A stretch of DNA of 64,000 nucleotides. It comes from Trypanosoma brucei (Eukaryota). Where the stretch lies: the NCBI GenBank assembly GCA_000002445.1, contig CP000067.1:32001-96000 (forward strand), read 5' to 3'. Of the stretch, positions 2,907-28,276 are shown in pieces (position 1 is the stretch's first letter; each line of letters opens with the position of its first letter). Below the pieces are notes generated by a model. The model made no database searches. It was not told the origin of the DNA and saw only the letters and a program-made list of their open reading frames with translations. The position numbers were made by a program, and so were the translations under genes.

Positions 2907-4946
2907 CTATGCATTGTTACCACCTCTATTGTTAACTCCATTGTTATTGTTACCTCTTACTTGCAATTCAACGTATAGTGCAGTAATGTGGTTACTAAGA
3001 GAAACTGAGAATTGACGCACTTTCTCTCTCCAAAATCTTTCCTCAACCTTATTATTTTGTCCTTCACCTTCGATTGTCCCCTCACAACATTGTGGCTTCG
3101 TAATTTTTTCACTGTCAACCCTTTGGACATATATTATTTCCCATACCATATCATTGGAAAAATTGTCCCAATGTTTGAAGTAACTTCGCAAATACTTCTT
3201 CATCTTAAATAACCCACTGGTGCTGCAGTATTGTTTATCGGAAATTGTGAATTGTAGTCCCACAAAAGTCTTCTGGTTCTCAACAAAAAAAAACGCATCA
3301 ACAACTGGGAAATTTCCTGATTGCGGCTTGCACAAAATCATGTATTGAATTTCAGTTCCAGCTACAATTGGAACATCCTCAGGAACCACAATCGAAGGAC
3401 CAATGAGTCTTGGTTCTTGCAGCACCTGCAGCACACTTTGTGGAATTTGATCCTCAGAAAGTGAGAGGCCCCGTAACTCCTTTGCCAGCTCAATTAGTGC
3501 ATCCTCATGTGACAATACTTCAATGCCACTCTGCTTGAAACGATAAGCAGCAAGGGTACGGTTAGACAGCAGTTCAGATACTAAAGCAGACTTTTCCTGT
3601 ATAAAAGGTTTCAGTCGATCTGAAATAGCTTCCCCCGTGCAAGATGAAAGTGGCTTGCAGCGATACGTATCACACAGGAGAAAATCCTCTTCCTTCACTC
3701 GAACAACCATCACCAACTTGTGTGATGCTTCATGTGTTTCCCAAAAGGCTCGGTTTCGAATAACGGAACGAAAATACTCAGTATCTCCACGTTCAAGTTT
3801 CAAAATAGTATTTTGCATTGCTTGAGCACGCTTTTCGTACGAACGTAAATCAACAATGTGACAAAGCAGTGGACCAACGATACGAATGCGAGCTTGAATT
3901 TCTTGCCATTCTCTTTCAATTTTCTCTTTCGCATCTGAAGGACTCCACTTGTAAGCAGGAGCAATTTTCCCCCACCTCGATATGTGTATGGCTTCCAAAT
4001 CCTTCAATGTGTCACAGTTTATGTAAATATGTGTGGCGCCGTTTTGCTTGGACCATTCATGGAATTGTCTGGCGTCTGGAAAACTCAAAGCAATACCGGA
4101 AAAATCAACAGGTGGTTTCACTGGAGCATGATGGTCCTTGTCCACGACGAATATAAGGTATCCCTTGATATCCTCTGCGCCACATGAATCTCTGACTATA
4201 TGGTCAATATATGTTGAAGCTTGCTCATAATTACTGTAAAACGTAACATATCCTGCTCGACCGCCTTTGGGTTTATGAAACACATACGCCTTACCCCTCA
4301 CAACGTATATGATAATCTGAAGTTGACTCGATTCATAATGCAGTAGTTTGTATAACAGAAAGGGTGCTGTGGAAAACGATTTACCAATACCAGGTGTACC
4401 AATAAGAACATGAAACATCGGGTTGACAGTCACTTCACCCATAAGCCACTTGTTAAGCCGTTCCTCAACCTTATGCCACACCCTCAGTGTTTCCCTGCGG
4501 ATATAAACATCACTTTTAAAAACATACTCCACACCCTTCTTGTGATTGATATCATAATCTTTTTCTTGTGGTTGGAAAGACGTGTATGGCCAACCCACTT
4601 GAGATGTGAGCACAGCAATCTCCAAGTTACCGTGACGAGGAAGAGGTTCGTTCATAGTTTCCAGAGTGTGACTGACATCAACCTCCTCCTTCGTCCACAT
4701 GCGCGGTGGCCTTCCATCGAACACTTTCATTCCAAGTGGCTCTTCATTATAACCCGACATTACATAGCTCCACGTCGCATTATAAATGTAATCGTATAAT
4801 TTCTCTTCGAGAGACTTGCCCTTTCCGGTTTCTGATGGGTTCTCGTTTTCTCGGCTGGCTTGTCTCTTCATTGGGCGGTACGCACCATTCAACCATCCAT
4901 TTAAAATATTCCGAGTATCTCCTACACTACCGCCGTTCTGATTCAT
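2907..4946 (-). CDS. RHS: Retrotransposon hot spot (RHS) family protein, 679 aa. This form lacks the N-terminal RHS domain and has a P-loop NTPase motif.
   Basis: True ATG start at 4944-4946. Walker-A-like GTPGIGKSF. Strong similarity to the other RHS members in the window (SYVMSGY..EPLGMKVFDGRP..WPY..YIRRE..RVW, C-terminal GNFPVVDAFFFV..WE(I/M)IYxQ). The first ~50 codons are identical to gene 17436-19463. Confidence 0.85.
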   Translation of the reverse strand: MNQNGGSVGDTRNILNGWLNGAYRPMKRQASRENENPSETGKGKSLEEKLYDYIYNATWSYVMSGYNEEPLGMKVFDGRPPRMWTKEEVDVSHTLETMNEPLPRHGNLEIAVLTSQVGWPYTSFQPQEKDYDINHKKGVEYVFKSDVYIRRETLRVWHKVEERLNKWLMGEVTVNPMFHVLIGTPGIGKSFSTAPFLLYKLLHYESSQLQIIIYVVRGKAYVFHKPKGGRAGYVTFYSNYEQASTYIDHIVRDSCGAEDIKGYLIFVVDKDHHAPVKPPVDFSGIALSFPDARQFHEWSKQNGATHIYINCDTLKDLEAIHISRWGKIAPAYKWSPSDAKEKIEREWQEIQARIRIVGPLLCHIVDLRSYEKRAQAMQNTILKLERGDTEYFRSVIRNRAFWETHEASHKLVMVVRVKEEDFLLCDTYRCKPLSSCTGEAISDRLKPFIQEKSALVSELLSNRTLAAYRFKQSGIEVLSHEDALIELAKELRGLSLSEDQIPQSVLQVLQEPRLIGPSIVVPEDVPIVAGTEIQYMILCKPQSGNFPVVDAFFFVENQKTFVGLQFTISDKQYCSTSGLFKMKKYLRSYFKHWDNFSNDMVWEIIYVQRVDSEKITKPQCCEGTIEGEGQNNKVEERFWREKVRQFSVSLSNHITALYVELQVRGNNNNGVNNRGGNNA

Positions 4947-5390
4947 TTCACTGTCCGAATAATAGCCTTAATTGAGTGTGTTGTGTTATTTCCTTTCTTT
5001 GTAACATAAATTAAAAAAAGAGATTAAAAATAGGGGAATATAAAAAGATACACTTCTAAACCAAATTACAATCAATGAATATTAGGAATTAATATGGAAG
5101 ATGAAAACTATTTATTGAAATTAGGATTCAATACAAATCTTATCATGTGTTGGGGTGTCACAGCAACTTAAGCACAAATAAGGTATGACAGTATGAATAA
5201 ACATTTCTGTTGGGAGTAAAACTCAAACAACAATTCCCAGTTACTGCACACAATCATTTCAGAAAAAATAATATACTTACATATATATGGGTATGGAAAA
5301 GCAAAAAAAATAAATAAATGTGGCATTGCCATGAAAAACAGCATATAATAGCTTTACTGATAAGCTATGCAAAACGTAGAATACTCGGTT
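4947..5390 (-). repeat. Conserved ~440 bp RHS 5' flank module, copy A (5'UTR plus a polypyrimidine/AG splice-acceptor region).
   Basis: Almost identical to 19464-19907 and ~90% identical to 10103-10490. Each copy sits directly upstream of an RHS start codon. Confidence 0.75.
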
Positions 5391-6290
5391 GCATACAAAA
5401 TAGTAAGTGCCTTACTTACCTTACAAAATTAAAAAAATACTAAAAGTAACGATAAATATAAAACATTATCTTCACAATTCAAAACAGACGCGTATTAAGC
5501 AAGAGAAAATAATGCATATAATCTCATACATATGTGACGATGAGTTTTACATATGATAATACAAATGTGTCACATCATATGGGTATTGCATGCAGTACAA
5601 TTTAAAGGAAGTGTAACTCATATAACATTTTCAAAAAAAAAGGTATTGAATGGTTGTTTGCTACCATCAATTACATTTCCAACGCCTGATTACACTTTTA
5701 TATGCATGAAGGAAGTTACTGATCATAACTTTGACATGCTCGAGAATTCATAACACAAAGCGACTGCTGCATGCAATAAAAAATAAAAATAAAAATAACA
5801 TCCGAATTAATTTACTGACAGATGAGTGCAATTCATTCATCCAAACTTCATAGCTGTAAACATAAACTCGCTGTTGCCAATAGGAAATAATCCCGCATAA
5901 ATATTGAGTATCTGAAAATGATAGCAACGGGTTTCCATTTTTGAAATATATGCATAAAATACATGAGGTATATGAAGCCATATTGGTAAAGTGTCACTAC
6001 ACATGTTGCAATTTACTATCAGAAGTGTCTGCCTTATTTTATTTCTTGTGTTACTGTAACTCATGAGTATTATTCATTATTCTGTACAATACAACTGTAA
6101 GTCATTTTGCATTTTTACATATTTTATTATTCTCTCATACTGGAAGTGTTCCACATATAAGATTCCTCAATATCGTTCACAAAATAAAAATAATTTCATT
6201 TCCTTCTGCATTCAGTTTCTCGTGTAGCAGTGTGTACAGTAATCATCCATAAAGTCTTTAATTTGCCAAATACATCATTACGAAACTATT

Positions 6291-6330
6291 TTCATACACA
6301 AACACAAACACAAACAAATAAACAACCAAA
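6291..6330. repeat. CA/CAAA-rich microsatellite-like tract (acacaaacacaaacacaaacaaataaacaaccaaac).
   Basis: Read directly from the sequence. Confidence 0.8.
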
Positions 6331-7135
6331 CATTTTTAAATGTTGCTGTGAAACGGAAATTTAATCACGGAAAATTGTGGGGCGCACACGTAATGGGCAC
6401 CATGAATGCCTCTTTGAATATTCCTCAATGGATTTTCACCAGCATCATCAACTTACTTTTTGTGTAAAAAAATAATAGAAACAAGACAGAACAGAAAAAA
6501 GAAATAAAGGTACAAATGCATTAATAAACCCAACTCCTCAGCAGGAAATCAAGAACAGGAAGTCACGAAAAGCGTATGGCACATATGATTTTCACCTCTC
6601 AGTTACTTAAGGTGGATCGCATGATTTACCCACCTTCTAAGAACACACCCTCCGAGAGGCCCGATTAAAAGAAAAAAAAACGCTATGACGGTTGAAAAGA
6701 CGTTTTTCATAAACCTTCACTTTATACGTGAGGATGCATAAATAAACAGTGATAACGATGAGAATGCTAACGGAAACAATGACGAACCGTGAGGATTCTA
6801 GAAAAAAAACACATACTTTTACATTAAGGAAACTTAATAAACAACAAAATATAAATATTCCCTACACAGAGGTATAGGGGGTGTTCGCCAACTTTGCAAC
6901 GTTGGCCAAAAAGTATTTAAATGTATCGATCATTCGTGTAGTCAATCAAATAAGAAGTAACATGTACTACACGCACAAAAGCACACTTATAAAGCCTACA
7001 AACCCACTTGCCCCCTTTTAGAGAATACCACTCTCTCGTCAGTGATAAGAGAGGTGATATTAAAAGTATTCCCTTTATAATTATTTCTGGTTCCTCAATT
7101 CGTTGCAACATAACATAACATGCAAAGATGTCGCA

Positions 7136-10102
7136 TCAGGCAGCGGGGCCACCAGCAATAGCGTTTGGTTCATCCTGGGTGATCTCCTTAACAATATCCT
7201 TTTCCATCTTCACTTGAAACTGGTTGATTCTATTCCACAACTCTGTAGTATAATCGCCTCTGCCCCCAACTGGTTCGCACTTCTGCCTCTCCTCGATTGG
7301 CTTGCTGTCACTGTACTGTATGTAAATCAGCTCCCATTTCAAGTTTATTGCGAGCTCATCCCATTCACCAAACAATTGTTTCATTGCCTTGATAAACTTA
7401 TCTACCTTCGTTCGTGTCGTGTGATGCGTTGGTGCCACTGTCGTCTGGAGCAGAACAATTGTTGTTGTAATGATCGCTCTTCCTTCTGTATCAACAGCTG
7501 GCTCAGTTACAAAGAAAAAGGCGTCCACAACGGGGAAATTTCCCTGTGCAGGTCGGTAGAAGCACCCGACCTCGATGTCTTGGCCTGTCGTTTCGGGGTA
7601 AATATGACGAAGTGAAGTTGGAACACGTCCCACGGCATTACCACTTGCCAGAACGGATACATTTGAATCCATTTCTTCTCCAACGCGAGGGAGATACCGC
7701 AGGTGCGTCACAATCGTCTGCACAACATTTCCCATCGTGAAGGCATATACGCCCACATTTTCAAATTCATCAGCGGCCTGCTCTTTTTTCCCACGAAAAC
7801 CCTTTCGAAGGTAATTGTCTCGCATACATGCTGTGTCCGCCCACACTCTCAATTTCTGCTCAATATCAATGGAAACAGCTCTGTTTCTGCATTCTTCTCC
7901 ATTCTCAGTTACAACCCGGACCAATTTAGCCAACCTGTATGTAGTCCCGTCCTCGCGCCATTCAACTTGACCATTCAGCACCTGCATATAGTAACCATCA
8001 TCGCCTCTACTGATTTCTGCCAGTGCCTCATTTATTTCTCTAACGCGGCCCTTGTAGCGTTCGTCACCTTCCAGTACGTGGCGGGCAGTGGGCCCACCTT
8101 CTTAATCCATCCTTATATTTTCTGCCATTCATTCTCAAGGTTTATGATGTGAGCTTCGGTGATTTTACTTTCCTCCAACTTCGACAGCCGCCTCCACGCA
8201 ACCGCAGCCTTCAGTTCCACCTCTTCATAGCAATTGATGCAAAGGAACTCGCAACCCCGTGGTTCCTTCCACTCTTTGTAGTTATTTGGATCTGGAGATG
8301 TCAACACAATTACGGGCCACGTTTCCGGCAAGTCTGCGGGTATGGGTTGGTGCCTGTCTTTCGAAAAGTCGTATATAATATAACCAAGAAGCCATTCGTC
8401 AGCCAAGGCATTGACAGCATCCACTCCATCATTTTCTTTTTCATAGAATACAACCCTTCCCGGATGATCGTTTGTCGCCATGAAGAAAATATATGCCCTA
8501 CCCTTCACAAAATAAGCGATAATCCGCAACAGCTCCGAATCGTAATGCAGCAACCCTTGGAGCAGGATTTTTTTTTAGAATTTTCTTCGTGCCTTCGTGA
8601 GAGTTTCCCCCCACTGGCGCGGCCATCAGCCATCACCGTAGAGCCCTGAGATGCTATCGGTCTGGCGACTGTGGCAGAGTCTCCCTTTTTTATTCATCCT
8701 AACACACCCTCTATAATTTTTGTTGTATTTCCGCATATGAACGGAATACAGCAGATGGGGCGAGAAGCCTCCCACCCTGGACTCTCCCAAAGATGCCAAT
8801 TGGCAATCCTTTTTTGGAGGTCCACATCACCGGACAGCAGCATCTTAGTGCGGATGATACTGCTGATGGCACGCTGGCACGTGCCCAGGGACCGACAAAT
8901 GAAAAACGGTGTCCCAGCAAGACGCTGCTGATCCCTGTGCTGTATGATGCCGTAGCCGGAGCACAGCAGTGTTCCCCATGAAAGGAACGCTGCTGGCTCT
9001 TGGCTTCCCCCGATGATACGGGGTACTGGACCCTGGCACCACGTTGAGGTGGCCGGCATCGCCAGGGTTGGAGCAGGAACGAGCCAACACCAACTGATTT
9101 CCCAATACCTGCAGTGCCGACGAGGACGCAAGGAATCTGTTTTTCGATCAGCCCTGACTCCAGCCACAAATCCAGCCTCTGCTTCACAAGATACCACACT
9201 CTCATTACCTCTCGACGAATGTACACATCCAGGTCAAACACGTAGTCTCCTGGTTTTTCCGCATCCTCTTGAATTACACTTCGCGGAATGCGGAAACGAT
9301 GATATGGCCAACCCTTCTGTGAGGTGAGCACAGCAATCTCTAAATTACCACGTCAAGGCAGTGGGTCGCACAAATCGTAAGGCGTTTTACTGACATTCAC
9401 CTCCTCTTCTGTCCACAGCTCAGGCTCGCCGTCACAATTACCCACCACCTTCAGGCCAAGAGGTAAATCATTGTGACCCGACTCCACATAACCCCACGTC
9501 GCGCTATAAATGGAGTCGTATACTCCTTTCAGTTCGGCACCACCAGCTGTTTGAGCAGCTCCTCCCAATGCTTCATCGAGTGCATTATTCAACATGTTAG
9601 TGACAATAATTCAAGTCTGCTCTCCATTTCTCAGTCCACGAATATTCACCTGTAACCTGGCCTTTACTTCCTCATTTGCTTGTTTCCAGCGCACGAGATT
9701 CAATATTCCCTCATTCTCATAAAAACCATAGACGCTGACAAAACGTTTGTACACTTGATACTCTGTTGTCGCGAATATTCGATTGAGCGCATTAACGTCA
9801 TTAATATACTCTTCACATCGTTGTACAAACACAGATATTGATACATTATTTTCTTCTTTCACATTGTATCTTGTGCCAAAATTACTTCTCAAAAAATCAT
9901 TCAACATCACATTTCCAGGATGTGGCAGACCATTCAGCAAAACTGCTTCAATGCAGCTGAAAAGTCTCCATTGTGGTTGGTTGTTATTCTCCACTCGTTG
10001 CTGCACTGCTGGAGGTTCCGCATCGTTACGCGCAGCCTCCTCACGCTCTCGTCTCCTTCCCTCAATGTCACCCCTTCCTTCAATAGGAACCTGTTGATTC
10101 AT
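7136..10102 (-). pseudogene. RHS: Degenerate RHS pseudogene. The N-terminal, P-loop, middle and C-terminal RHS regions are split across at least five reading-frame pieces, and it is interrupted by a RIME element.
   Basis: Track ORFs 9611-10102 (N-terminal domain, ATG start), 9353-9595, 8711-9331 (GTAGIGKS P-loop), 8113-8553 and 7136-7987 (C-terminal GNFPVVDAFFFV) are co-linear with intact RHS genes but lie in different frames. Confidence 0.8.
8565..9067 (-). mobile_element. RIME-type (ingi-derived) non-LTR retroposon, ~503 bp including poly(A), inserted in frame into the RHS pseudogene just downstream of the P-loop.
   Basis: Minus-strand 5' end reads CCCTGGCGATGCCGGCCACCTCAACGTGGTGCCAGGGTCCAGTACCCC, which matches the conserved trypanosomatid retroposon 5' signature as I recall it. 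The 3' end is an A9 tail (T9 at 8565-8573 on the plus strand). An 11 bp target-site duplication ttggagcagga lies at 8554-8564 and 9068-9078. The insert is a GC-rich ~500 bp block where intact RHS genes have only ~15 codons. Confidence 0.85.
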
Positions 10103-10490
10103 TTCACTCTCTGAATAATAATCTTAACTGAGTGCGTTGTGTTATTTCCTTTCTTTGTAATATAAATAAAGAATTAAGATGAGGGAATTTAAAATGGACA
10201 CACTTCTAAACCAAATCAAATATACAATCAATGAATATTAGGAATTAATATGGCAGGTGGAAACTATTTATTGAAATTAGGATTCAATACAAATCTTATC
10301 ATGTGTTGGGGCGCCACAGCAACTTAAGCACAGATAAGGTATGACAGTATGAATAAACATTTCTGTTGAGAGGAAAACTCAAACAACAATTCCCAGTTAC
10401 TTCACACCATCATTCCAAAAAAAATAATATACTTATATATATGTATGTATGGAAAAGCAAAAAATAAATAAATGTGGCATTGCCATGAAA
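10103..10490 (-). repeat. Conserved RHS 5' flank module, copy B (~90% identical to copies A and C), upstream of the degenerate pseudogene.
   Basis: Aligned by eye with 4947-5390 and 19464-19907. Confidence 0.7.
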
Positions 10491-11158
10491 AAAAAACAGT
10501 TTCACACGTGTGGTCCAAAAGCTGCATCAGCCAATACGATATCTTGACAGCTTGTCATGCAGTCTTGTCTCAAGAAGAAAATAAAACATTCATCTCTGCT
10601 TTCCGTTAATTGATAAATGAGATCCCATGCTGTGTTAACTCACGTCTCCATTCAAATAGTTGACTCAACGTTGTGACGAAGCAGTGACCAAAAACAATCC
10701 AAATGCAATTCCAAATTTCTTCATATTACGCTTTCAGTTTTATTACACATTTCCCCAACCATTCCGAGTACTAACAGGAATAATTTGGTTCTATCCTAAT
10801 GCATGTGCTTTCTACAGCTCTTTCATTTTGTTATGATCCGCACAAAAATTATATATGTGGTTGTTGATTCGTCCTGTCAATCAAAGTAACAATCATAATA
10901 ATTAATTTTCCCCTTTTCTTCATTTTTTCTATTAGCACATGTGCACCTTGGTGAGATCACTTTCACTCATTTGCACTGATTGGTCAACACCATTTAGTTC
11001 GTCATTCAACACACTCCCTTACATGTCCTCTTCTCACCATTTATAACCCACACGAGCAGCATCAAATATAAATTGTGAAGAGGTATGAGATCACAAGAAC
11101 TCGCTCTCATTGAGAAGGTTGGATGCGTCATATATATATATAATCATGTAATCCCTTT

Positions 11159-14047: not shown

Positions 14048-16410
14048 TCACCTTCGCTTTGCTTTCATCGCTCGCCTCCCCTGTGCCTTTTCTGCCTCCT
14101 GAAGATCTACCATCAGATGAGCATTCATTTCGTCCCCAAACGTTACTTGGAATTGTTCAATCATTTCCCAAAATGTTTGAAGTTGTTTCGCCTTCCTGGC
14201 AGGGATAACTTTGTCGTCGTTCGCCTCACATTTTTGCCAATTGGTAATCACACCGCCATTAACTCCATTCATGTATATCATCTCCCAAGCCATGTTACCC
14301 GAAAACGTGTTCCAGTCCGAAAAATATCCTTTAATTCTCTCCGTGAACGCATTCAACTTTGTCGCAGTGGTGGAGTGACAGTCCGACTTGGTCACGTGTA
14401 AAAGGACAAGTGTCTTTGGTTTTGGCGTTTTTTTCGCTTGCCTTCCAGGTGACATCGTGAAGCGCCCCTCAACGAAAAAAAAGCCATCCACCAAGGGTTC
14501 ATAGGCTGTGGCGGGAGTGTAGAGCACCATGTATTCGCAGCGTTCAATTGGGTTCTGCCTGGCTGCTGGTAAGACTTCCCATCCAGTGAGGCACAACTGC
14601 TGAGGAGTCATGCTACTCAGTATACTTTGTGTTCCCCTCAGCTTCTCAGGCGGATGGAGGTGTCTCAAGTTCTTTGCCATCATCTCGAGAACTCGAGGAT
14701 TGAGCACCGCAAACAACGCATGGCTTTCAAATGAAATGAAAGCGGCACTTCTGTTTCTCATCATGAGCTGGGACTCTGCTACTTTTCGCGCAGTAAAGCC
14801 AAGCACCGCCCAAAGTAGCAAGGTCCTTATGTGCCCGGAAAGCTCTTTGCTGCGATATGAATCTCCGGAAACTCCATTTCCACGCGAACGGACTATCTGT
14901 ACCATCTGGTACGACACCTTTTCAGTTTGCCAGTTCATTGATGACCTAAAAAGATCCTCGCAGCCATTTTTATCATTAGCATCGAGGCCTCTTATTTTTT
15001 TTGCCACCGCCTCCATTCGCCCTCCGTGCCCCACAGCGTCGTAAACGGCACGAGGCACCGGGCCGGCCACTGCAATACGCTGCTTTACAGTTTCCCATTC
15101 GTCCTCAAGATCTCCTTTTAACTTTTCTTTTGCTGTGTTGGATACCTTTTTACCTAATGCTACTGATAAATTCTTCCATGCCACAAATGCCTTCATGTCA
15201 CCCACATCATCGTAGTTTATAATAATATGGCGGCTTCCCATGTCCTTTTCCCACTCCTCATAATGTGCCGTATCCGGGGAAGTGAGGACAGTTATACCCC
15301 AACCCAAATGGCACAGCTCATCAGGCGGTATAAGTAGTTCGTTACCGATGTCGACAATGATGTGACCTCTTTTTTTTCTTATTGTTTTTATGAAGGTAAC
15401 GGCGGAATCGGTGCTTCTGTCTTCCTCAACCCTCCCCTCTTCTCCGGGTTTCTTGTTATGTATTAGGTAAGCGATTTTTCCCACGAAATATGCAACAACA
15501 TCAAGCATTCCTTCATTGAAGTGAAGCAGTGAATGAAGCAAAAATGATCCAAGGCCACATGTTTTACCAATACCAGGTGTACCAATAACAATATGTATCG
15601 GTGGTCTCTGTGCTTTTTCCACCCACCTTCCTTGCAGCCCTCGTTGAATTATATACCACACGCGCATAATTTCACGACGGATGTATACATGTTTAAGTTT
15701 TTCCCCGCACCTCTCAGTGTGGCCCAATGCAAACCTGTTGTATGGCCAACCTTTCTCCGAAGTGAGAACAAAAATCTCCAAACCATCAGGCCTCTCCTCA
15801 ATATCTGCATCGACATTCGTAGGATCAGGAGTTACATCCACCTCCTCCTTCGTCCACATGCGCGGTGGTCTTCCATCAAACACTTTCATTCCAAGTGGCT
15901 CCGCATCATAACCCGACATCACATAACTCCATTTTGCATTATAAATGGAATCGTATAATTTCTCTTTGAGAGACTTGCCCTCTCCGGTTTCTGATGGGTT
16001 CTCGTTTTTCCGCTCTCTTGGCGGCTATCACTGCAGCATCCAACATTCCCCTCGCCACGGGACCAACAAATTCCCTTATTTGCGCTGTTGCCCTCTCTTC
16101 CCATTGCTGTATGTCGCTAATCTCATTACGAGGCAGATAAATAACTGCCCTCAGTAATTGAAACTCCTCAAGCCGCTGTATTCTTCCTAGAATCCTGGCA
16201 TCTAAAATAAATCTTTTGTGATTCTTAACAAGCAAAAACATGGCTACATTCTGTGTGTCATACGTGTTTGAGAAGTATTGATCCAAAAAGTCATGCAGTT
16301 TTATTTCATCCAAACTCGCATAATCTTCCAGCAGCACATTCGCAATAGAGCTGTTAATTGACCAAGTTGACCCTTTTTCGCCTCCACGCAGTCAATTCAA
16401 AAAATATATT
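14048..16410 (-). pseudogene. RHS: Near full-length RHS pseudogene of the same subfamily as the tandem-array genes. It has N-terminal, P-loop and C-terminal domains, one frameshift, and no initiation codon.
   Basis: ORF 15939-16337 (N-terminal domain, GTG-'started' in the track) and ORF 14048-15922 (VIGTPGIGKTCG through the C-terminal FFFV..WEMIY) are separated by a single -1/+1 shift at the T5 run 16005-16009. The codon at the Met position is ATT (16356-16358), and there is a TGA just upstream. Confidence 0.8.
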
Positions 16411-17435: not shown

Positions 17436-19463
17436 TTACCTTCGGCCCGCAGCAGCCACCGCAAGCATTTTGATAACTATGTTATCCTCATACTGCACAT
17501 GGTACTGCTGCACATTGTTCTTCCAGAATCCCTTCACAAACTGGTGACTGCGGTGCTTTGCCTTACCCTGTGTAATTTCACACTTCTGCTCAGACCTCAT
17601 CGCTGTGGATTCGAAGTGCTGAACGTAAATGATTTCCCAGTGAAACATCTCAGTAATTTCCTCCAACTGCTCAACGGTAGCCTCATTCTGGTGACCCCCT
17701 CCCTCCGCACTTGGCAAGAGGGATTGTAACAAATGAATGAATTCGTCGGTTTTTGTGTCATGTCTGCTGGCAACAGTAAACTGCAACAACACAATAGTTT
17801 TCTTTCCTGTGGTTCCTGAAGCCTGTGCAGCCTCCTTGTCATCAACAATAAAGAATGCATCCGCTACGGGGTAGTTGGGAATGCACGGCACATATAATTC
17901 CACCGGAGCCCCCTCCGACTCAGCCCAGTTGATGTCACCTGGCACTGTGTTTGTTCGACCAACTTTGAGGAGGTCATCCCTTACGTGTTGCAAAATGCTT
18001 TTGCGTGTCCTCATGCGTCTGGCCCTTTCATTTGCTGGAAGTTTCGTTATTAAACTTACGAAGCAAGTTAACACTCTGGGGGAACACAAATATTTAATTG
18101 CATTCTCCTCAAAATAAAGCCCGATGGCAGATGCATTCCGCATCATACCAGTTGTCAGTGCCCACTCCTCAGCAATGCCGGAAAACACTACATTCAAAAT
18201 TCTTTTCTTTATAGATTCAGAATGCGCCACGCAGACATACGTGTCAAAGGAGTTTCCTTCTCGAGCTTTGATACGAACGATCTTCACGAGCTTATGTGAT
18301 GCATCATTGTCCCTCCATTCCCCACAGTTGTCCAGTACCTTAGTATATATTCCGTACTTGTTACCTGCTACGATACTCCCCAATTCCCCGTCCACTGCAG
18401 TAAGCTCCTGTCCATACATTACTTCGTCAAACACATAACGAAGTGAAGGTCCGACACGCTCCACACGGTTCTCATACATGTTCCACTTTTCCCTCAACTC
18501 AACATGCGTGGCTTGAGGAAACAGCTTGAGTCCCATACGTGAGAAGAAAGCCCGCATTTCACTCATTTCCCAGCAGTTAACAACAATAAAAGCGCCTTTA
18601 CGTTGCTTTTGCCAGCTGTCAAAATTTCTCAAATTGGGTGAACTGATCAAAATGCTTCCCCATTTTGGAGCCACATCTGCCGGTGGCTGCTCGCCTTTGT
18701 TGACGAAGTCATAAATAATATAACCACGTGTATTAGATGATATAACCTTCATAAACGTTATAGCCGCTTCTTTACTGTACTCCCTAACTCTGCCAACGCC
18801 ACCATTATCCGATTTTTCAAATATATATGCGGCTACACCACGGAAATACGCAACAACAGGCAACTCTTCCGCATCATAATGCAATAACTTGTAGAGGATA
18901 AAAGAACCCAAATTCTGAGATTTGCCAATCCCAGGATTACCAATGGCAACGTATGATCGTGGTAAATAAAGACATCCCGGTATAACACGCTGGGTACGCC
19001 ATAATTCAATTCCACTCCTTACAACATTCCATACGCGGAGCTCCTCTCTGCGAATGAATATGTCACTGTTACTTCCCCGGGCAAAGCCTGTATATGGCCA
19101 ACCCATTTCTGAGGTAAGAACCAACAGCTCAACTCCTTCCGTGCGTTCCGGCTTCTGTTCAAGAGTTTCCTCAATTTTGGGGACAACATTAAGTTCCTCA
19201 TCTTTCCACATCAAACCTTCATTGGGCATTCCATCAACCAACGTCATTCCCAATGGTTGAGTTCCATCGTCGATAATAATATAACTCCATTTCGCATTAT
19301 AGGTGGAATCGTATAATTTCTCTTCGAGAGACTTGCCCTCTCCGGTTTCTGATGGGTTCTCGTTTTCTCGGCTGGCTTGTCTCTTCATTGGGCGGTACGC
19401 ACCATTCAACCATCCATTTAAAACATTCCGAGTATCTCCCACACTACCGCCGTTCTGATTCAT
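17436..19463 (-). CDS. RHS: RHS family protein, 675 aa. N-terminal-domain-less form with P-loop NPGIGKS.
   Basis: ATG at 19461-19463. The first ~50 codons and the upstream 440 bp are identical to gene 2907-4946, while the body is diverged. The C-terminal motif PVADAFFIVD..WEIIYVQ is present. Confidence 0.85.
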   Translation of the reverse strand: MNQNGGSVGDTRNVLNGWLNGAYRPMKRQASRENENPSETGEGKSLEEKLYDSTYNAKWSYIIIDDGTQPLGMTLVDGMPNEGLMWKDEELNVVPKIEETLEQKPERTEGVELLVLTSEMGWPYTGFARGSNSDIFIRREELRVWNVVRSGIELWRTQRVIPGCLYLPRSYVAIGNPGIGKSQNLGSFILYKLLHYDAEELPVVAYFRGVAAYIFEKSDNGGVGRVREYSKEAAITFMKVISSNTRGYIIYDFVNKGEQPPADVAPKWGSILISSPNLRNFDSWQKQRKGAFIVVNCWEMSEMRAFFSRMGLKLFPQATHVELREKWNMYENRVERVGPSLRYVFDEVMYGQELTAVDGELGSIVAGNKYGIYTKVLDNCGEWRDNDASHKLVKIVRIKAREGNSFDTYVCVAHSESIKKRILNVVFSGIAEEWALTTGMMRNASAIGLYFEENAIKYLCSPRVLTCFVSLITKLPANERARRMRTRKSILQHVRDDLLKVGRTNTVPGDINWAESEGAPVELYVPCIPNYPVADAFFIVDDKEAAQASGTTGKKTIVLLQFTVASRHDTKTDEFIHLLQSLLPSAEGGGHQNEATVEQLEEITEMFHWEIIYVQHFESTAMRSEQKCEITQGKAKHRSHQFVKGFWKNNVQQYHVQYEDNIVIKMLAVAAAGRR

Positions 19464-19907
19464 TTCACTGTCCGAATAATAATCTTAATTGAGTGTGTTG
19501 TGTTATTTCCTTTCTTTGTAACATAAATTAAAAAAGAGATTAAAAATAGGGGAATATAAAAAGATACACTTCTAAACCAAATTACAATCAATGAATATTA
19601 GGAATTAATATGGAAGATGAAAACTATTTATTGAAATTAGGATTCAATACAAATCTTATCATGTGTTGGGGTGTCACAGCAACTTAAGCACAAATAAGGT
19701 ATGACAGTATGAATAAACATTTCTGTTGGGAGTAAAACTCAAACAACAATTCCCAGTTACTGCACACAATCATTTCAGAAAAAATAATATACTTACATAT
19801 ATATGGGTATGGAAAAGCAAAAAAAATAAATAAATGTGGCATTGCCATGAAAAACAGCATATAATAGCTTTACTGATAAGCTATGCAAAACGTAGAATAC
19901 TCGGTTA
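19464..19907 (-). repeat. Conserved RHS 5' flank module, copy C (~99% identical to copy A).
   Basis: Direct comparison with 4947-5390. Confidence 0.8.
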
Positions 19908-22844
19908 AAGGTATTCATGCGCATGGTGAAGGATCTTTACATTAAGAAATAATACAAACAACTATCAGAACTTGCGCATAATCTCACATGAGCCGTCACT
20001 CGGAATGACGTTTCCATTACTTATTAACTTTGCAACAACAATTTTAATACATACTCTCACACTCCTAATCAGTACACAGTGTGCAAATGAAAGTACGAGA
20101 TATCAAAACATATACAATAATAATCGCCGTAAAAAGTAAAACCAATGAAAATAAAATCTTATACATCAAAGAGGAACCTCTCTCACCTGACGAACAAATG
20201 CTGCTCACTTTCTTTATTCTTTAAGTGATCCTGTGTTTTTTTTCTTGCGGCCATGGAACCATGAATACAAAGAACATATGAAGGCATGAAAGGTATTTGT
20301 TTTTGTTTTGGTATTGGAGCACCTTGCCATGCGTCTGATCTTGTGCCTTGGTGAAACTCAAAAGAAACGAAAGGCTCACGGAAGGGAACAAATATATTTG
20401 TGGGAATAACAATCCAATATTAGGCCTCTTTTAAGGAGTGTGCTGAGTGGAATAATGGTGAAAAAGAAGTATTGAAAATGTATGCTATATGGACAAATGC
20501 CTTACAATGTTTTCTCTCTATCTGAAACATATGGAATATATGGAATATATAAGGAACAAGAAACATAGGGAATATATGAAGAATAAGGAAATATATGATA
20601 TATTCTGAAGTGCCGGATGTGCTTGTGCGTGTCTTCGTATGTGTTCTCTGCTTTATATATCACTAAATATTTTACACATTTCATTTTACTTTGCGTATGC
20701 TAATAGCTTGTTTTTCCTTGCATCAATTCATGGAAATATCTATTAGAGAAATAATAATTTACTTTTTCTCTTCCTTTCCCGCTAATGTTTCACCGCCTAT
20801 TTTCATTCCTTATAAATACTGTAAATTTCTTTTGTTACTGTAACTATTTCCAAAAAAAATGTAATGGAGACACTTTAAGCATTACATATCATAATATCTC
20901 TAAACTCCTTCTATGTTATGTTAAGTTACAAATATTTTCATTCCCATTAATTTTATTCAGCAGAACATACAAAACACCCTCAAAAGTCCTTCCTTCCTTT
21001 CTTTTTCTTCAACATCATAATATACCTTGTGGAATATACAAATATATAATAACCATAAATGTGTTATATATCTTCACAACATCAGAAGCTATACAACAGA
21101 ATTGTGTTCCTCAAGAAGCAGTGGTTGTGTTTCCTTTTACTTTCTCTCAGAGTCAAACTAATTAATTAATTACTAATAACATCCTCCAAAGATATTGCTT
21201 CTATTTTCTTGGATCACTCAGCAGCGTAACACCGGAGTATTGAAATAAAGAGTCACAGTTCAAAGAAAATAAAACAGTAAAAAAAATAAACAGAGGCTCG
21301 CACCTTCACAATTGGTTGCATTTGGATATATCAAACGCATTTATACACTTGCATTCCTTGTGTTTCTTTTTTGGGGGAGGGTAAATGCAAAATGCAAAAT
21401 GTATCAAGTTGACGAGTAGAAGAAATACAACACTTGATATAATTTCACTTACATATAAGCTTTCGTTTCCCACTTTATTCTAATTCATAATATTTAGATA
21501 GCAATGTAATGGAGCATTCAGCCATAAACATTTTAACCATAAATATAGTAACTAATGTGTGAATGGTAACCCATGGTGATACATTCCATATGGAACAATA
21601 CCACATTGTTAAATATACGCATGGAATTAAAACTATAGCACTAAATTGAAAATGAAAAATTAGAAGAGAGAAAGATATGAATTATCAAAAGAGGCATATT
21701 CTTCACTAACATGCACTTGTTTCAATACAATCATAATTTCAAATTACTTTAAATGATAAGTGGCCCAATGTCCTGAAACGACACAATAACAATGATTTCA
21801 TTATAACAACTGTAAAATAATGATATGCAATAAAGTAAATAATATAAATAAATAAAAATACAGCAAGCACTGCAGAATATATTTTACTGCTATAACCATT
21901 TGCAAACAAATGAATAGCTTTGCTCATTGGAAGAAAATAATTAAATTCAAACTTCCTATGATTCTGCCAGTGTTGGTGAGCTACGTGTGGGACTCAAAAA
22001 AAACAAAAGTTTATTTTAAATAAATATAAAGAAAAGAAAAACTTCTCATGAAACCATAAGGGTACCCCTGTGAGTTATGTGCTGCTGTAAAACATAGTTA
22101 ACTTCACAACCCTCAAGAAAGAAAGAAATAATAAAAGTAAAATGTAAACAAAAATAAAGTTAAGATATATAATACACTTATGCTTAACTAAATGTAACGT
22201 GTCATACGTAAAGGTGATAAAATAATAATCACAATGTAATGTTATCAATGCTTTCCTTCGCAAACGAAAACTGTCACATCTCAATGTGTTCTTCCAAATT
22301 AATATAAAGGAACCAGCTGTGTTTGTATAATATTCTACAATGTCATTTGGCATTGTCCAATGCTCACTCAAAAAACTCCTTCGTTTTGTTGCGATGTAGC
22401 TGTTGACAGTGTTGTGCTCTTTTTCTTTTTTATTTTTTAACATACAACTATGGGTTTCCGTAATCCTCTCAATATTGCTGCAGTTCCCATCATTAAAAAA
22501 AAAACAAAAGAAATCCATCAAAATAGCGTAACTGGAGTATAAGATGTTGTAGAGAACAATGTATTTATTTTGAGTAATGGAACTCTGTGAGGTCGAAGAC
22601 AATAATCCGAAACGATTGAACCGAAACTTTCATTGCCCCATGCCTGTAAAATAATAATTTAATTGCTCAACGCATATTCTCATCCTGCAGTAAGTAGTTC
22701 AAACAATTTCGTACACACATGAAACACTGGAAGGAAAAGAAAACATATACATTGCATAAACCTTTACTAAATGAAAATACTATTTTTGGTATCGAGTTCA
22801 CCATGTGTTACAGAGCCACATTTCACTAACATGCTAAAGCATAA

Positions 22845-24542
22845 TTAATTCATCATCATATTTCTGATCATCAGCGATAGGGCTTGACATTTGTATGATT
22901 CGACTCCTCCAACATTTCCTTTTACTCTTACAATCTTCACCAACTTGTTCATAACTTCATCGTTCCGCCAGTCAGCCGTGTGTTCAATAATATCATTATA
23001 GCAATATTTATCAGATTTCTTCATAGCTCTCAACGCATCATACACACTTTTCAGATGCCACTCATAACAACCTAAACCAAATATATAACGAGGCAGCGGT
23101 CCAATTAAATTAATGCGTTCCTCCACTATTTTCCACTCATCTTCAATTTCTCTCTTCAATTCGTATCTTCTTCTGTTGGACACCTTTTCTCCTGTATGTA
23201 TTGACAGCTTTTTCCATGCCATAAATGCCTTCATGTCACGCACATCATCGCAGTTCATAATAATTTGGTGGCCTCCCTTATTTGCACTCCACTCATCAAA
23301 ATGGTCACTTTTAGGGAAAGTGAGGAAAGTTACACTCCAAACATCAGAGGGAAGTTGAGTGTATAGTTGCTCCATTGCATACCTTGTGTCCATAACAATG
23401 TGCCCTTTGCTTTCAGATTTCATTTTATTTATGGCAGCAACGGCAGACTCCCAGCGTTCGTATTCATCAACAGTCCCTCTTTCCTCACCCTCTCGGTTGT
23501 ATATCAGGAAGGCAGAATCCTCCAAGAAATATGCAACAACATCAAGCATTCCTTCATTGAAGTGAAGCAGTGAATAAAATAAAAATGATCCAAGGCCACA
23601 TGTTTTACCAATTCCAGACGTGCCAATAATAATATGTATTGGTGGACCCTCAGCTGTTGCTTCCATCCACCATGCTTTCAGACCTCGTTGGATTATATAC
23701 CACACGCGCATAATTTCACGACGGATATATACATGCTTGCAAATTGTCTTGCATCTCTCAGTGTAACCCAATACAAACCTGTTGTATGGCCAACCCTTCT
23801 CCGACGTAAGAACAAAAATCTCCAAACCATTGGATCCTTCCTTTACTCTTGCATCAACATCGGCAGTTTTAGGAGTTATATTCAATTCTGCCTCCGTCCA
23901 TATGCGCTGCGGCCTTCCATCGAATACCTTCATTCCAAGTGGCTCCGCATCATAACCCGACATCACATAACTCCATTTCGCATTGTAAAAAGAATCGTAA
24001 ACATCTCGACAACTTTTGACAGAAACACGCGGCAGAAACCATACTTCTGATTCCGTGACAGCATATTGTACTGCATTCAACCTTCCCCTTGCTACAGGGC
24101 TAATGGAGTTTTTCACCTCTGGAGTTGCACCGTTCACCCAATCGCTGATGGTATAAATTTTTTCCTCTTTAAGGTAGTTTATCCACATTTCTGTTTCAGG
24201 CAGTTTCTCAACAATCCTTTTGTACTCCCTGAACTCATAAAGCCCCTGTATATCCTCAAGAATCTCGGCATCCTTAATATAATCTTCAGGATTCTTAACA
24301 AACGTTTCCATTGACACATTCACTGTGTTATACGTGTTTGAGAAGCATTGATTCAAAAAGTCATGCAGATTCATTTTGGGCAATGTCGCATATTCTTCCA
24401 GCAAAAAATCCCTCACTGTACTGTTCATTTTACAATCAGAAAATCTTTTATATCTCTGCGGCATCTGTGGAGGCTGAGCAGGAGGAGGTGCTACATGTTC
24501 ATCCCGTGGCCTCCTCATGGCTCCTTCAATGTTATTTGGCAC
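22845..24542 (-). CDS. RHS: RHS-like protein, array copy 1. It has the N-terminal RHS domain and P-loop core but lacks the C-terminal RHS domain. The canonical ATG is replaced by ATA, and the first ATG is 8 codons into the track ORF.
   Basis: IIGTSGIGKTCG P-loop. Co-linear with the RHS pseudogene 14048-16410 up to ...YKCQALS, then stop. The track start is GTG; the ATA is at 24592-24594. Confidence 0.65.
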   Translation of the reverse strand: MPNNIEGAMRRPRDEHVAPPPAQPPQMPQRYKRFSDCKMNSTVRDFLLEEYATLPKMNLHDFLNQCFSNTYNTVNVSMETFVKNPEDYIKDAEILEDIQGLYEFREYKRIVEKLPETEMWINYLKEEKIYTISDWVNGATPEVKNSISPVARGRLNAVQYAVTESEVWFLPRVSVKSCRDVYDSFYNAKWSYVMSGYDAEPLGMKVFDGRPQRIWTEAELNITPKTADVDARVKEGSNGLEIFVLTSEKGWPYNRFVLGYTERCKTICKHVYIRREIMRVWYIIQRGLKAWWMEATAEGPPIHIIIGTSGIGKTCGLGSFLFYSLLHFNEGMLDVVAYFLEDSAFLIYNREGEERGTVDEYERWESAVAAINKMKSESKGHIVMDTRYAMEQLYTQLPSDVWSVTFLTFPKSDHFDEWSANKGGHQIIMNCDDVRDMKAFMAWKKLSIHTGEKVSNRRRYELKREIEDEWKIVEERINLIGPLPRYIFGLGCYEWHLKSVYDALRAMKKSDKYCYNDIIEHTADWRNDEVMNKLVKIVRVKGNVGGVESYKCQALSLMIRNMMMN

Positions 24543-24653
24543 TTGTGGGTTTGCGTTATTTCCTTGTGGAGCTGCGGGGCTATTGGCTCTTGATATAACT
24601 ATTTTAACAACCGTTATTAACTTAACTATCTTTTCTTAACTTTACTTTTTTAA

Positions 24654-24710
24654 CTGAAATTATAAATAGCTGAAGTAAAGCAGCCGATGAGGAAAACAAA
24701 AGTGTGTGAA
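24654..24710 (-). promoter_or_regulatory. Putative polypyrimidine tract plus AG trans-splice acceptor region for array copy 1. Equivalent sites exist in the other units.
   Basis: The sense strand reads cacacttttgttttcctcatcggctgctttacttcag, with AG about 110 nt upstream of the coding start. Inferred from sequence context only. Confidence 0.3.
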
Positions 24711-27700: not shown

Positions 27701-28276
27701 GAAAACTGTCACATCTCAATGTGTTCTTTCAAATTAATATAAAGGAACCAGCTGTGTTTGTATAATATTCTACAATGTCATTTGGCATTGTCCAATGCTC
27801 ACTCAAAAAACTCCTTCGTTTTGTTGCGATGTAGCTGTTGTCAGTTGTGCTCTTTTTTTATTTTATTTTTTAACATACAACTATGGGTTTCCGTAATCCT
27901 CTCAATATTGCTGCAGTTCCCATCATTAAAAAAAAACAAAAGAAATCCATCAAAATAGCGTAACTGGAGTATAAGATGTTGTAGAGAACAATGTATTTAT
28001 TTTGAGTAATGGAACTCTGTGAGGTCGAAGACAATAATCCTAAACGATTGAACCGAAACTTTCATTGCCCCATGCCTGTAAAATAATAATTTAATTGCTC
28101 AACGCATATTCTCATCCTGCAGTAAGTAGTTCAAACAATTTCGTACACACATGAAACACTGGAAGGAAAAGAAAACATATACATTGCATAAACCTTTACT
28201 AAATGAAAATACTATTTTTGGTATCGAGTTCACCATGTGTTACAGAGCCACATTTCACTAACATGCTAAAGCATAA

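What the first reader, a model, noticed from the sequence alone, without database searches (positions are those of the whole stretch)
2907..5390. Two intact RHS genes have precisely lost the N-terminal RHS domain and share an identical 5' end plus a 440 bp upstream module despite diverged bodies
Genes 2907-4946 and 17436-19463 both start MNQNGGSVGDTRN(I/V)LNGWLNGAYRPMKRQASRENENPSETG.... Their MNQ start and upstream 440 bp match the start of the degenerate pseudogene (MNQQVPIEG...). Residues DTRNILNGWLNG correspond to the last residues (VNIRGLRNGEQT) of that pseudogene's N-terminal domain. So about 150 codons of N-terminal domain are cleanly absent. The two genes are near-identical for the first ~50 codons and in the 440 bp flank (99%), but are heavily diverged (roughly half identical) afterwards. 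This implies a 5' module spread by conversion or duplication onto different RHS bodies. Together with the array genes, which lack the C-domain, this locus shows RHS domains being shuffled modularly.
Basis: seen in the sequence. Interest (0 to 1): 0.6.

Follow-up and report, generated by a model that had tools for sequence, protein, structure and literature searches.

The report
Shared 5' cassette on trypanosome RHS genes
Two neighbouring Trypanosoma brucei "retrotransposon hot spot" (RHS) genes carry a nearly identical 600-base start region because such genes swap pieces by recombination; this is real but ordinary for a gene family long known to be mosaic.

Summary
The window is a subtelomeric RHS (retrotransposon hot spot) gene cluster of Trypanosoma brucei brucei TREU927, not bacterial Rhs. 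The core observation holds. Gene A (2907-4946, RHS1 body) and gene B (17436-19463, RHS5) share a 600-nt block, 444 nt upstream plus 52 codons. It has 6 differences (99.0%), while the flanks are 36% and 43% identical.

The interpretation needs correction.
- Both genes keep Pfam RHS_N. What is absent is the helical N-terminal module that contains DUF7578.
- This is not a local clean deletion. The 50-residue "MNQNGGSVGDTRN" leader is the standard N-terminus of every RHS5 protein retrieved. It also occurs on RHS1 and RHS4 proteins whose database records are named RHS1, RHS4 and RHS5a. A diverged version heads a separate, probably RHS7, group.
- The leader-specific DNA shows no significant match to long-form genes.
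- The array genes are RHS3, a naturally short subfamily.

Comparison with T. equiperdum and T. b. gambiense loci shows four-segment incongruence. This indicates a recent conversion tract of about 600 bp between A and B. It is bounded upstream by the RHS repeat-unit edge and downstream by the start of RHS_N. Mosaicism by recombination is already documented for this family. Low interest, already known.

The parts
4791..5390 (-). Short-type 5' cassette of gene A: 444 nt of upstream sequence plus the first 52 codons (50-residue leader MNQNGG...EEKL, then YD).
   Evidence: 99.0% identical to B 19308-19906 (6 differences, 372-nt perfect run). 86.5% (upstream part) and 94.2% (leader) identical to the T. 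equiperdum short RHS1 locus L004.
19308..19906 (-). Short-type 5' cassette of gene B.
2907..4946 (-). Gene A: intact short-N-terminus RHS1 gene (679 aa). It has RHS_N and the RHSP P-loop domain but no DUF7578.
   Evidence: Pfam. 100% match to P0001/XP_844174; 89% to P0002, whose cluster holds 'RHS1' AAL14360; 70-76% to long RHS1 proteins. The C-terminus ...GNNNNGVNNRGGNNA matches long RHS1.
17436..19463 (-). Gene B: intact RHS5 gene (675 aa). The short N-terminus is the canonical architecture of this subfamily.
   Evidence: Falls in the same 90%-identity cluster as RHS5a (AAL14356/CAB95337). The only close relatives are short RHS5 proteins and the long RHS6a at 59%.
4997..5038 (-). 31-nt polypyrimidine tract (5038-5008) with the first downstream AG at 4997-4998 (G at 4997, about 51 nt before the ATG): predicted trans-splice acceptor inside the cassette.
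   Evidence: Sequence scan. The function is inferred from the general rule of trypanosome trans-splicing and was not tested.
10095..10492 (-). Upstream part of the long MNQQ-type 5' cassette in front of the RHS2 pseudogene. It is homologous to the short cassette's upstream part up to ATGAATCA.
   Evidence: About 89% identical to A 4939-5338 and B 19456-19854; alignment.
7139..10102 (-). It has the long MNQQ N-module and is interrupted by a RIME element at the family's hot spot.
   Evidence: tblastn to P0023: aa 1-345 at 96%, aa 341-503 at 94%, aa 500-818 at 90%. The RIME-derived tail of P0030 matches 9067-8714 at 100%. RIME spans 9067-8568, flanked by the direct repeat TCCTGCTCCAA.
15956..16020 (-). 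Patch of the 3' part of the short leader (...RKNENPSETGEGKSLKEKLYD) inside the chimeric RHS4 pseudogene C (about 14075-16457). A long 'MWNS'-type N-module is joined to it at GAAAA(A)CGAG with a +1 frameshift.
   Evidence: The body is 80% identical to long RHS4 P0010. 'RKNENP' matches the short RHS4 protein P0008.
5579..7300 (-). Far-upstream flank of A ('X' type). It is the 3' flank that follows RHS2 genes.
   Evidence: 92-93% identical to sequence downstream of RHS genes in L002 and L004. The L004 neighbour is RHS2 (P0071); the subfamily of the L002 neighbour was not checked.
19907..22900 (-). Far-upstream flank of B ('Y' type). It is the spacer that follows RHS3 array genes.
   Evidence: 88% identical over 3.5 kb to the region upstream of the T. 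equiperdum short RHS1 gene (L004 6512-10000).
20598..46300 (-). Tandem array of five RHS3 genes with a period of about 5434 bp.
   Evidence: Self-BLAST, 97-98% identity between units. Proteins P0039 and P0077-P0081 are 557-572 aa and end ...RNMMMN like RHS3 P0035.

Best explanation
The shared block is the standard 5' cassette of the short-N-terminus class of Trypanosoma brucei RHS genes. It holds 444 nt of upstream sequence, including a predicted trans-splice acceptor, then the start codon and a 50-residue leader. The leader replaces the ~130-residue helical module (DUF7578 plus linker) and the disordered tail of long RHS proteins.

The cassette is old and belongs to the family. It is canonical for RHS5, occurs as a minority form on RHS1 and RHS4 bodies, and is present in diverged form on a separate, probably RHS7, group.

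In this window, the copies in front of the short RHS1 gene A and the RHS5 gene B, 14.5 kb apart, were recently homogenised by ectopic homologous recombination, most simply a gene conversion of about 600 bp. The tract ends where pre-existing homology ends.
- Upstream it stops at the edge of the RHS repeat unit (-444), where the 3' flank of whichever gene lies upstream begins.
- Downstream it stops at codon ~52, the start of the RHS_N domain. After this conserved block the RHS1 and RHS5 bodies are too diverged to pair.

Shown: the identity block, its boundaries, the incongruent relationships of the four segments, and the occurrence of the leader on several subfamilies.
Inferred: the mechanism (conversion rather than double crossover), the splice site, and any functional consequence of lacking the helical module.
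For: - Block and sharp edges: (6 differences in 600 nt; 372 nt perfect).
- Incongruence between segments. Far upstream: A-B 36%, B-Teq 77.5%, A-Tbg_MNQQ 71%. Cassette upstream part: A-B 99.1% against A-Teq 86.5% and B-Teq 86.9%. Leader: A-B 98.1%. Body: A-B 42.7% against A-Teq 93.5%.
- Other copies of the cassette differ by 13-20% in the non-coding part, so 99% identity is not explained by constraint alone.
- A and B alone share Ser31 among 13 MNQNGG-type leader sequences, which include redundant near-identical cluster members.
- The 5' edge is a unit boundary. A's flank matches the 3' flank of RHS2 genes and B's flank matches the RHS3 spacer, in other genomes too.
- The cassette is family-wide: RHS5a, RHS1 (673 aa) and RHS4 (685 aa) are all short with this leader. 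All RHS5 retrieved are short. RHS6a has a long MNQQ module on an RHS5-like central body. A diverged leader heads the probably-RHS7 genes.
- The long MNQQ module has the same breakpoint.
- A fossil junction inside the leader survives in pseudogene C.
- The AF2 model places a low-confidence loop (aa 166-173) between the helical N-module and RHS_N, so the module junction is a domain boundary.
- Literature: RHS subfamilies are defined by their C-termini; 78 of 118 genes are pseudogenes (PMC6393297). Mosaic RHS genes arising by gene conversion and ectopic recombination are described in T. cruzi, and crossing-over between variants is cited for T. brucei (PMC7563717).
Against: - The direction of transfer (B to A or A to B) cannot be determined. 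No DNA of another RHS5 locus was available; TREU927 loci are not in the contig index.
- Only one outside short-cassette locus (T. equiperdum L004) calibrates 'normal' cassette divergence.
- Conversion and two independent crossovers give the same end product and cannot be told apart from one haplotype.
- The origin of the leader-specific 140 nt is unresolved.
Confidence: 0.78

Rival explanations
1. Each gene independently, or a recent common ancestor at this locus, underwent a clean in-frame deletion of about 145-150 codons from a long MNQQ-type RHS gene. MNQ and the last residues of the N-domain were kept.
For: - The upstream ~400 bp and ATGAATCA are shared with MNQQ-type genes at 80-89%.
- The leader, from about residue 10, has the same length (about 42 residues) as the last stretch of long N-modules before YDS.
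- The best profile-profile alignment is colinear: leader 13-35 against PVARGRLDAAVIAAKRAEKRAVL, P=0.027.
- The pseudogene C junction is roughly in register.
Against: - The leader-specific 140 nt have no significant DNA match to any long N-module, in local alignment against shuffles or in sensitive blastn and tblastn, although the adjacent non-coding DNA is 80-89% identical.
- hhalign probability is only 1.8%.
- The short leader exists in a version diverged to 65% nt and about 44% aa on a separate gene group shared by T. b. brucei and T. b. gambiense. The architecture is therefore old.
- The same leader sits on three body types on at least four chromosomes.
Confidence: 0.06
2. There was no recent exchange. 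The cassette is simply under very strong purifying selection (splice signals, 5' UTR, leader peptide), so all copies stay nearly identical.
For: Leader peptides of 13 short RHS proteins are 88-96% identical. The cassette contains a plausible splice acceptor.
Against: - The non-coding part is only 86.5% identical between A and the T. equiperdum short RHS1 gene, although their bodies are 93.5% identical. It is 80-83% identical to MNQQ-type cassettes. Typical divergence is therefore more than ten times the A-B value.
- A 372-nt perfect run in AT-rich non-coding DNA is not expected from constraint.
- The identity ends abruptly at both edges.
Confidence: 0.07
3. Gene A was newly created at this locus by duplicating B's 5' cassette and joining it to a long RHS1 gene. 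This would be the birth of a short RHS1 gene, rather than the overwriting of an existing short RHS1 cassette.
For: A's cassette is almost identical to B's, and A's far-upstream flank is of the type that precedes an MNQQ-type long gene in T. b. gambiense.
Against: - Short RHS1 genes with this leader exist elsewhere: P0002 on another chromosome, its T. equiperdum counterpart P0060, and AAL14360.
- A's body is closer to these (89% aa, 93.5% nt) than to long RHS1 proteins (70-76% aa). A therefore descends from an already short RHS1 lineage.
Confidence: 0.07
4. Assembly artefact: a repeat was collapsed or copied during assembly of a repetitive subtelomere.
For: The region is highly repetitive (five-copy array and several RHS paralogues).
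Against: The two copies differ at 6 positions, have different unique flanks on both sides, and each continues into an intact ORF of a different subfamily. Equivalent chimeric arrangements occur in independent genomes.
Confidence: 0.02

Closest known systems
Trypanosoma brucei RHS (retrotransposon hot spot) multigene family, subfamilies RHS1-RHS7 (Bringaud et al. 2002, as summarised in PMC6393297 and PMC7563717)
   Same: - Both genes carry RHS_N and the RHSP P-loop domain and match proteins named RHS at 100%.
- They lie in a subtelomeric cluster that also holds a RIME-disrupted pseudogene.
- Subfamilies are defined by C-termini, because the N-terminal parts are shared between subfamilies.
   Different: Nothing essential differs. 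I could not read the 2002 paper, so I cannot say whether the 444-nt-plus-50-codon short cassette was described there as a unit.
RHS5 subfamily (RHS5a, AAL14356/CAB95337)
   Same: Gene B is in the same 90%-identity cluster. All five RHS5 sequences retrieved are 674-675 aa and start with the MNQNGG leader.
   Different: Gene A carries the same cassette on an RHS1 body. Short RHS1 proteins (AAL14360, XP_845147) and short RHS4 proteins (CAD21767, XP_846380) are also already in the databases.
Mosaic RHS genes generated by gene conversion and ectopic recombination in Trypanosoma cruzi (PMC7563717)
   Same: Short tracts are exchanged between paralogues of different groups, including the region coding for the amino-terminal part. 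The loci are subtelomeric.
   Different: That study is in T. cruzi and used RDP-type statistics on coding sequences. Here the tract includes 444 nt of non-coding upstream sequence, and its ends coincide with a repeat-unit edge and a domain boundary.
Segmental gene conversion in other trypanosome subtelomeric families (mosaic VSG genes)
   Same: Homology-bounded patches are copied between diverged paralogues.
   Different: There is no evidence that RHS exchange is programmed or selected for antigenic diversity. RHS proteins are reported as mainly nuclear, with RHS2 perinuclear or cytoplasmic.

Membership tests
Trypanosome RHS protein family | RHSP P-loop domain (PF07999) with a GxxGxGKS motif | tested here: met
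   A: aa 180-494, E=6.8e-102. B: aa 172-469, E=1.7e-57. GTPGIGKS and GNPGIGKS are present in the translations.
Trypanosome RHS protein family | RHS_N domain (PF20445) preceding the P-loop domain | tested here: met
   A: aa 51-173, E=3.8e-57. B: aa 51-159, E=1.1e-20. This contradicts the claim that the 'N-terminal RHS domain' is lost.
Long-form RHS architecture | DUF7578 (PF24466) helical module upstream of RHS_N | tested here: not met
   No DUF7578 hit in A or B. It is present in the array gene (aa 55-113) and in the pseudogene ORF (aa 63-123). tblastn with long forms finds nothing upstream of A or B.
RHS5 subfamily (gene B) | C-terminal domain of RHS5 type, with 90% or more identity to RHS5a | tested here: met
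   P0009 shares a 90%-identity cluster with RHS5a, AAL14356/CAB95337. The C-terminal ends are nearly identical.
RHS1 subfamily (gene A) | C-terminal domain of RHS1 type | tested here: met
   70-76% identity to proteins named RHS1, and 89% to P0002, whose cluster contains 'RHS1' AAL14360. The shared ending is ...VRGNNNNGVNNRGGNNA.
Gene conversion tract between paralogues | A segment whose closest relative differs from that of both flanking segments (phylogenetic incongruence) | tested here: met
   Four-segment identity table using L004 and L002 as outside references.
Gene conversion tract between paralogues | Identity in the tract far above that of other copies of the same segment | tested here: met
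   99.1% for A-B against 79-87% among the other cassette copies. Only four outside copies were available.
Gene conversion tract between paralogues | Non-reciprocal transfer with an identifiable donor | not testable with these tools
   DNA of other TREU927 RHS5 and RHS1 short loci is not in the accessible collections.
Recent in-frame deletion derivative of a long MNQQ-type gene | Sequence on both sides of the deletion point matches the parent at similar identity | tested here: not met
   The upstream side is 80-89% identical, but the leader-specific 140 nt are at chance level (38% in global alignment; local scores within the shuffle distribution).
Bacterial Rhs/YD-repeat toxins (the other meaning of 'RHS') | YD repeats, an Rhs core, and a bacterial context | tested here: not met
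   The only Pfam hits are trypanosome RHS domains. The organism is T. brucei.

The most novel reading that the evidence does not exclude
The short 5' cassette is a selected 'N-terminal switch'. It is repeatedly grafted by recombination onto different RHS bodies, and kept uniform by conversion, to make paralogues that lack the helical DUF7578 module. These paralogues would then have a distinct role or distinct partners within the RNA polymerase II-associated RHS complexes.
Probability: 0.15. Interest if true: 0.4.

Novelty: already known. Interest (0 to 1): 0.15.

Why it matters
The finding matters little beyond this locus. It gives a clean, well-bounded example of how RHS genes are assembled from three kinds of exchangeable pieces: a 5' cassette with an N-module, a central body, and a C-terminal domain. 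It also shows that conversion tracts stop at repeat-unit and domain boundaries. A specialist might use the cassette definition (-444 to codon 52) to catalogue short and long RHS isoforms, and to ask whether the DUF7578 module matters for the reported roles of RHS proteins in transcription and mRNA export. The genes, their subfamilies and the mosaic nature of the family are already documented.

Tried and rejected
- Bacterial Rhs reading: rejected at once by Pfam and homology.
- Origin of the leader-specific 140 nt. Local alignment against long N-modules of four genes with shuffles gave no signal. Sensitive blastn and tblastn against the window and four outside loci found only other short leaders and the patch in pseudogene C. 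Profile-profile comparison was weak (P=0.027, probability 1.8%).
- Word-indexed protein search with the 52-residue leader: no candidates, a limitation of the tool.
- Exhaustive HMMER search of 1.84 billion cluster representatives with the 50-residue leader: only the RHS5 and short RHS4 representatives were found. The leader was therefore not detected outside the T. brucei group.
- DNA of the other TREU927 short RHS loci (P0001, P0002, P0008, P0018): not on record. T. b. gambiense and T. equiperdum loci were used instead.
- Bringaud et al. 2002 could not be opened by DOI or PMC id. Its content is cited only through PMC6393297 and PMC7563717.
- Link between the retroelement hot spot and the module boundary: rejected. 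The hot spot lies after the P-loop, where the RIME sits at 9067-8568, not at the leader junction.
- Fold search of the AF2 model against the PDB: only weak AAA+/STAND-like P-loop similarity (best E=3.7e-3) and nothing informative for the N-module. No sequence relative has a solved structure.
Full report
WHAT THE WINDOW IS

The two ORFs are not bacterial Rhs genes. They are members of the trypanosome "retrotransposon hot spot" (RHS) family. Pfam finds RHS_N (PF20445) and the RHSP P-loop domain (PF07999) in both. Both match proteins of Trypanosoma brucei brucei TREU927 at 100%, on a 1,590,432-bp chromosome.

All genes are on the minus strand. In the direction of transcription the window holds:
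- a giant HECT/SPRY ORF (63979-48881);
- five tandem RHS3 genes (46300-20598, period about 5434 bp);
- RHS5 gene B (19463-17436);
- a chimeric RHS4 pseudogene C (about 16457-14075);
- RPB2-derived fragments (about 12728-11935);
- an RHS2 pseudogene with a RIME element in the hot spot (10102-7139);
- short RHS1 gene A (4946-2907).

CHECK OF THE OBSERVATION

The shared block is real and sharply bounded. Self-BLAST gives A 4764-5390 = B 19281-19906 at 98.1% over 627 bp. A sliding comparison shows identity of 95% or more from 5390 to about 4791, against 20-60% on either side. Within A 5390-4791 (600 nt) there are 6 differences, one of them a 1-nt indel, and a perfect run of 372 nt. The block covers 444 nt upstream of the ATG plus 52 codons. 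The upstream ~400 nt and the first 8 coding nucleotides (ATGAATCA) also match the region in front of the RHS2 pseudogene at about 89%.

Three details of the finding are wrong.
- Both genes retain Pfam RHS_N (aa 51-173 and 51-159). What they lack is the module containing DUF7578.
- The bodies are 34% identical in protein and about 43% in DNA, not about half.
- The proposed residue correspondence with the end of the pseudogene ORF is not statistically supported. That ORF ends at a premature stop, not at a domain end.

WHAT IS MISSING IN THE SHORT FORMS

An AlphaFold2 model of the RHS3 array protein (mean pLDDT 76) shows four regions: a disordered tail (aa 1-32), an all-helical module (about aa 35-168, DUF7578 plus linker helices), a low-confidence loop (aa 166-173), and then RHS_N. 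The short forms replace everything before RHS_N with a 50-residue leader. The junction is therefore a domain boundary. Weak fold matches are only to AAA+/STAND-type P-loop proteins.

THE SHORT LEADER IS A KNOWN, FAMILY-WIDE ARCHITECTURE

- The same leader, always exactly 50 residues before Y(D/E), heads RHS5a (AAL14356), four further RHS5 proteins, 'RHS1' AAL14360 (673 aa) with XP_845147 and a T. equiperdum counterpart, and 'RHS4' CAD21767 and XP_846380 (685 aa).
- A search with gene B finds only short RHS5 proteins as close relatives. The next relative is RHS6a at 59%.
- RHS6a combines a long MNQQ module with an RHS5-like central body that is visibly far more conserved over roughly aa 48-346 than the 59% overall.
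- A diverged leader (MIQNNGNMRNTQN...; about 44% aa, 65% nt) heads a cluster of short RHS genes on the 2.2-Mb chromosome in both T. b. brucei and T. b. gambiense. These are probably RHS7; that label is my inference.
- An exhaustive search of 1.84 billion cluster representatives finds the leader only in the RHS5 and short RHS4 representatives.

In the same way, the array genes that 'lack the C-domain' are RHS3, whose members are naturally 557-590 aa and end ...RNMMM(N/S).

N-modules and bodies combine freely across the retrieved proteins:
- RHS1 occurs with the MSRANS module or the short leader.
- RHS2 occurs with the MNQQ or MWNS module.
- RHS3 occurs with the MSRANS or MNQQ module.
- RHS4 occurs with the MSRANS module or the short leader.
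- RHS6 occurs with the MNQQ module.

This agrees with the published practice of defining subfamilies by their C-termini (PMC6393297).

NOT A SIMPLE DELETION

If the short form were a recent in-frame deletion of an MNQQ-type gene, the ~140 leader-specific nucleotides should match the parent about as well as the adjacent non-coding DNA does (80-89%). They do not.
- Local alignments against four long N-modules score within the shuffle distribution.
- Sensitive blastn and tblastn find only other short leaders.
- Global identity is about 38%.
- The best profile-profile alignment (leader 13-35 against PVARGRLDAAVIAAKRAEKRAVL, the last helix of the long module) is colinear but weak: P=0.027, probability 1.8%.

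An ancient relationship to that helix remains possible. A clean recent loss is not supported. The shared upstream region and 'MNQ' are better explained by later exchange of the homologous upstream part between cassette types, ending where homology ends.

RECENT EXCHANGE BETWEEN A AND B

I compared A and B with outside loci: T. equiperdum short RHS1 (L004), T. b. gambiense long MNQQ gene (L002), and the T. b. gambiense gene with the diverged short leader (L001). The four segments have different nearest relatives.
- Far upstream: B is closest to Teq (77.5%) and A to Tbg-MNQQ (71%). A-B is 36%.
- Cassette upstream part: A-B is 99.1%, against 86.5% and 86.9% to Teq and 80-83% to MNQQ-type cassettes.
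- Leader: A-B is 98.1%.
- Body: A-Teq is 93.5%, against A-B at 42.7%.

A and B alone share Ser31 among the 13 MNQNGG-type leader sequences retrieved, which include redundant near-identical cluster members. Other copies of the non-coding cassette differ by 13-20%, so constraint cannot explain 99% identity with a 372-nt perfect run. The simplest reading is a conversion tract of about 600 bp between two genes 14.5 kb apart. The direction of transfer could not be resolved.

WHY THE EDGES ARE SHARP

- Upstream edge. A's flank (7300-5579) is 92-93% identical to sequence downstream of RHS genes in two other genomes. The neighbour in L004 is RHS2; the subfamily of the L002 neighbour was not checked. 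B's flank (22900-19464) is 88% identical over 3.5 kb to the RHS3-type spacer that precedes the T. equiperdum short RHS1 gene. Position -444 is therefore the edge of the RHS repeat unit. Upstream of it lies the 3' flank of whatever gene comes before.
- Downstream edge. The tract ends at codon ~52, the start of RHS_N. The following conserved block (YDSIYNAKWSY...) is shared by all subfamilies at the DNA level, but beyond it RHS1 and RHS5 are too diverged to pair.
- The long MNQQ module shows the same behaviour. It has patchy 90-100% identity between genes with different bodies, from -400 to about +590, and then 40-60%.
- Pseudogene C preserves a junction inside the leader. A long MWNS-type module is joined at GAAAA(A)CGAG to ...RKNENPSETGEGKSLKEKLYD, with a +1 frameshift.

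FUNCTION (INFERRED)

The cassette carries a 31-nt polypyrimidine tract with the first AG about 51 nt before the ATG. That is the expected layout of a trans-splice acceptor. The cassette therefore supplies the processing signal, the 5' UTR, the start codon and the leader. RHS5, which is always short, was detected by mass spectrometry in RHS6 pull-downs and is counted among the nuclear RHS proteins (PMC6393297). The helical module is thus not needed for expression or for association with that complex. Any specific role for its absence is untested.

COMPARISON WITH WHAT IS KNOWN, AND VERDICT

Several things are already documented:
- the genes carry RHS annotations;
- short RHS1, RHS4 and RHS5 proteins are in the databases under those subfamily names;
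- the family is classified by C-termini because the N-terminal parts are shared;
- recombination, gene conversion and mosaic RHS genes have been described (PMC7563717).

I could not open the 2002 paper. I therefore cannot say whether the cassette as defined here was described explicitly.

Verdict: the finding is a correct observation of an ordinary, already-known property of this family, with a mislabelled domain and an unsupported 'precise loss' reading. Interest is low.

Noticed in passing
window 8568-9067 (within the RHS2 pseudogene, 7139-10102, minus strand): A ~500-bp RIME retroelement sits at the canonical RHS hot spot just after the P-loop. It ends in poly(A) and is flanked by the direct repeat TCCTGCTCCAA. 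The pseudogene also has a premature stop after codon 163.
   Followed up: partly
window about 14075-16457 (minus strand), junction near 15956-16020: An RHS4 pseudogene that is a three-part chimera. A long MWNS-type N-module, with an internal stop, is joined out of frame at GAAAA(A)CGAG to the 3' third of the short leader, followed by an RHS4 body. It is a fossil recombination junction inside the leader.
   Followed up: partly
window 11008-13703 (minus strand); ORFs 12462-12728 and 11935-12267: Fragments derived from the RNA polymerase II second-largest subunit (Pfam Rpb2 domains 4 and 6) lie between RHS pseudogenes. The whole 2.7-kb stretch is 94% identical to sequence next to an RHS gene on a different chromosome of T. 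b. gambiense (L002 5861-8574). An RPB2 pseudogene fragment therefore travels with RHS units.
   Followed up: partly
window 20598-46300: A tandem array of five RHS3 genes (557-572 aa) with a period of about 5434 bp and 97-98% identity between units. About 3.7 kb of AT-rich spacer in each unit has no Pfam hit in the two ORFs tested.
   Followed up: partly
window 48881-63979 (minus strand): A single 5032-codon ORF with SPRY and C-terminal HECT ubiquitin-ligase domains and a higher GC content (about 0.48-0.51). It presumably marks the start of the conserved chromosome core next to the RHS cluster.
   Followed up: no
window 9500-10500 compared with L002 2600-3600: The long MNQQ N-module is itself a patchwork. 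Stretches of 98-100% identity to a T. b. gambiense gene with a different body alternate with stretches of 48-70%. Identity drops at the start of RHS_N, the same breakpoint as for the short cassette.
   Followed up: partly
window 426-902 (minus strand): A 158-aa ORF downstream of gene A has no Pfam hit. It was not examined further.
   Followed up: no
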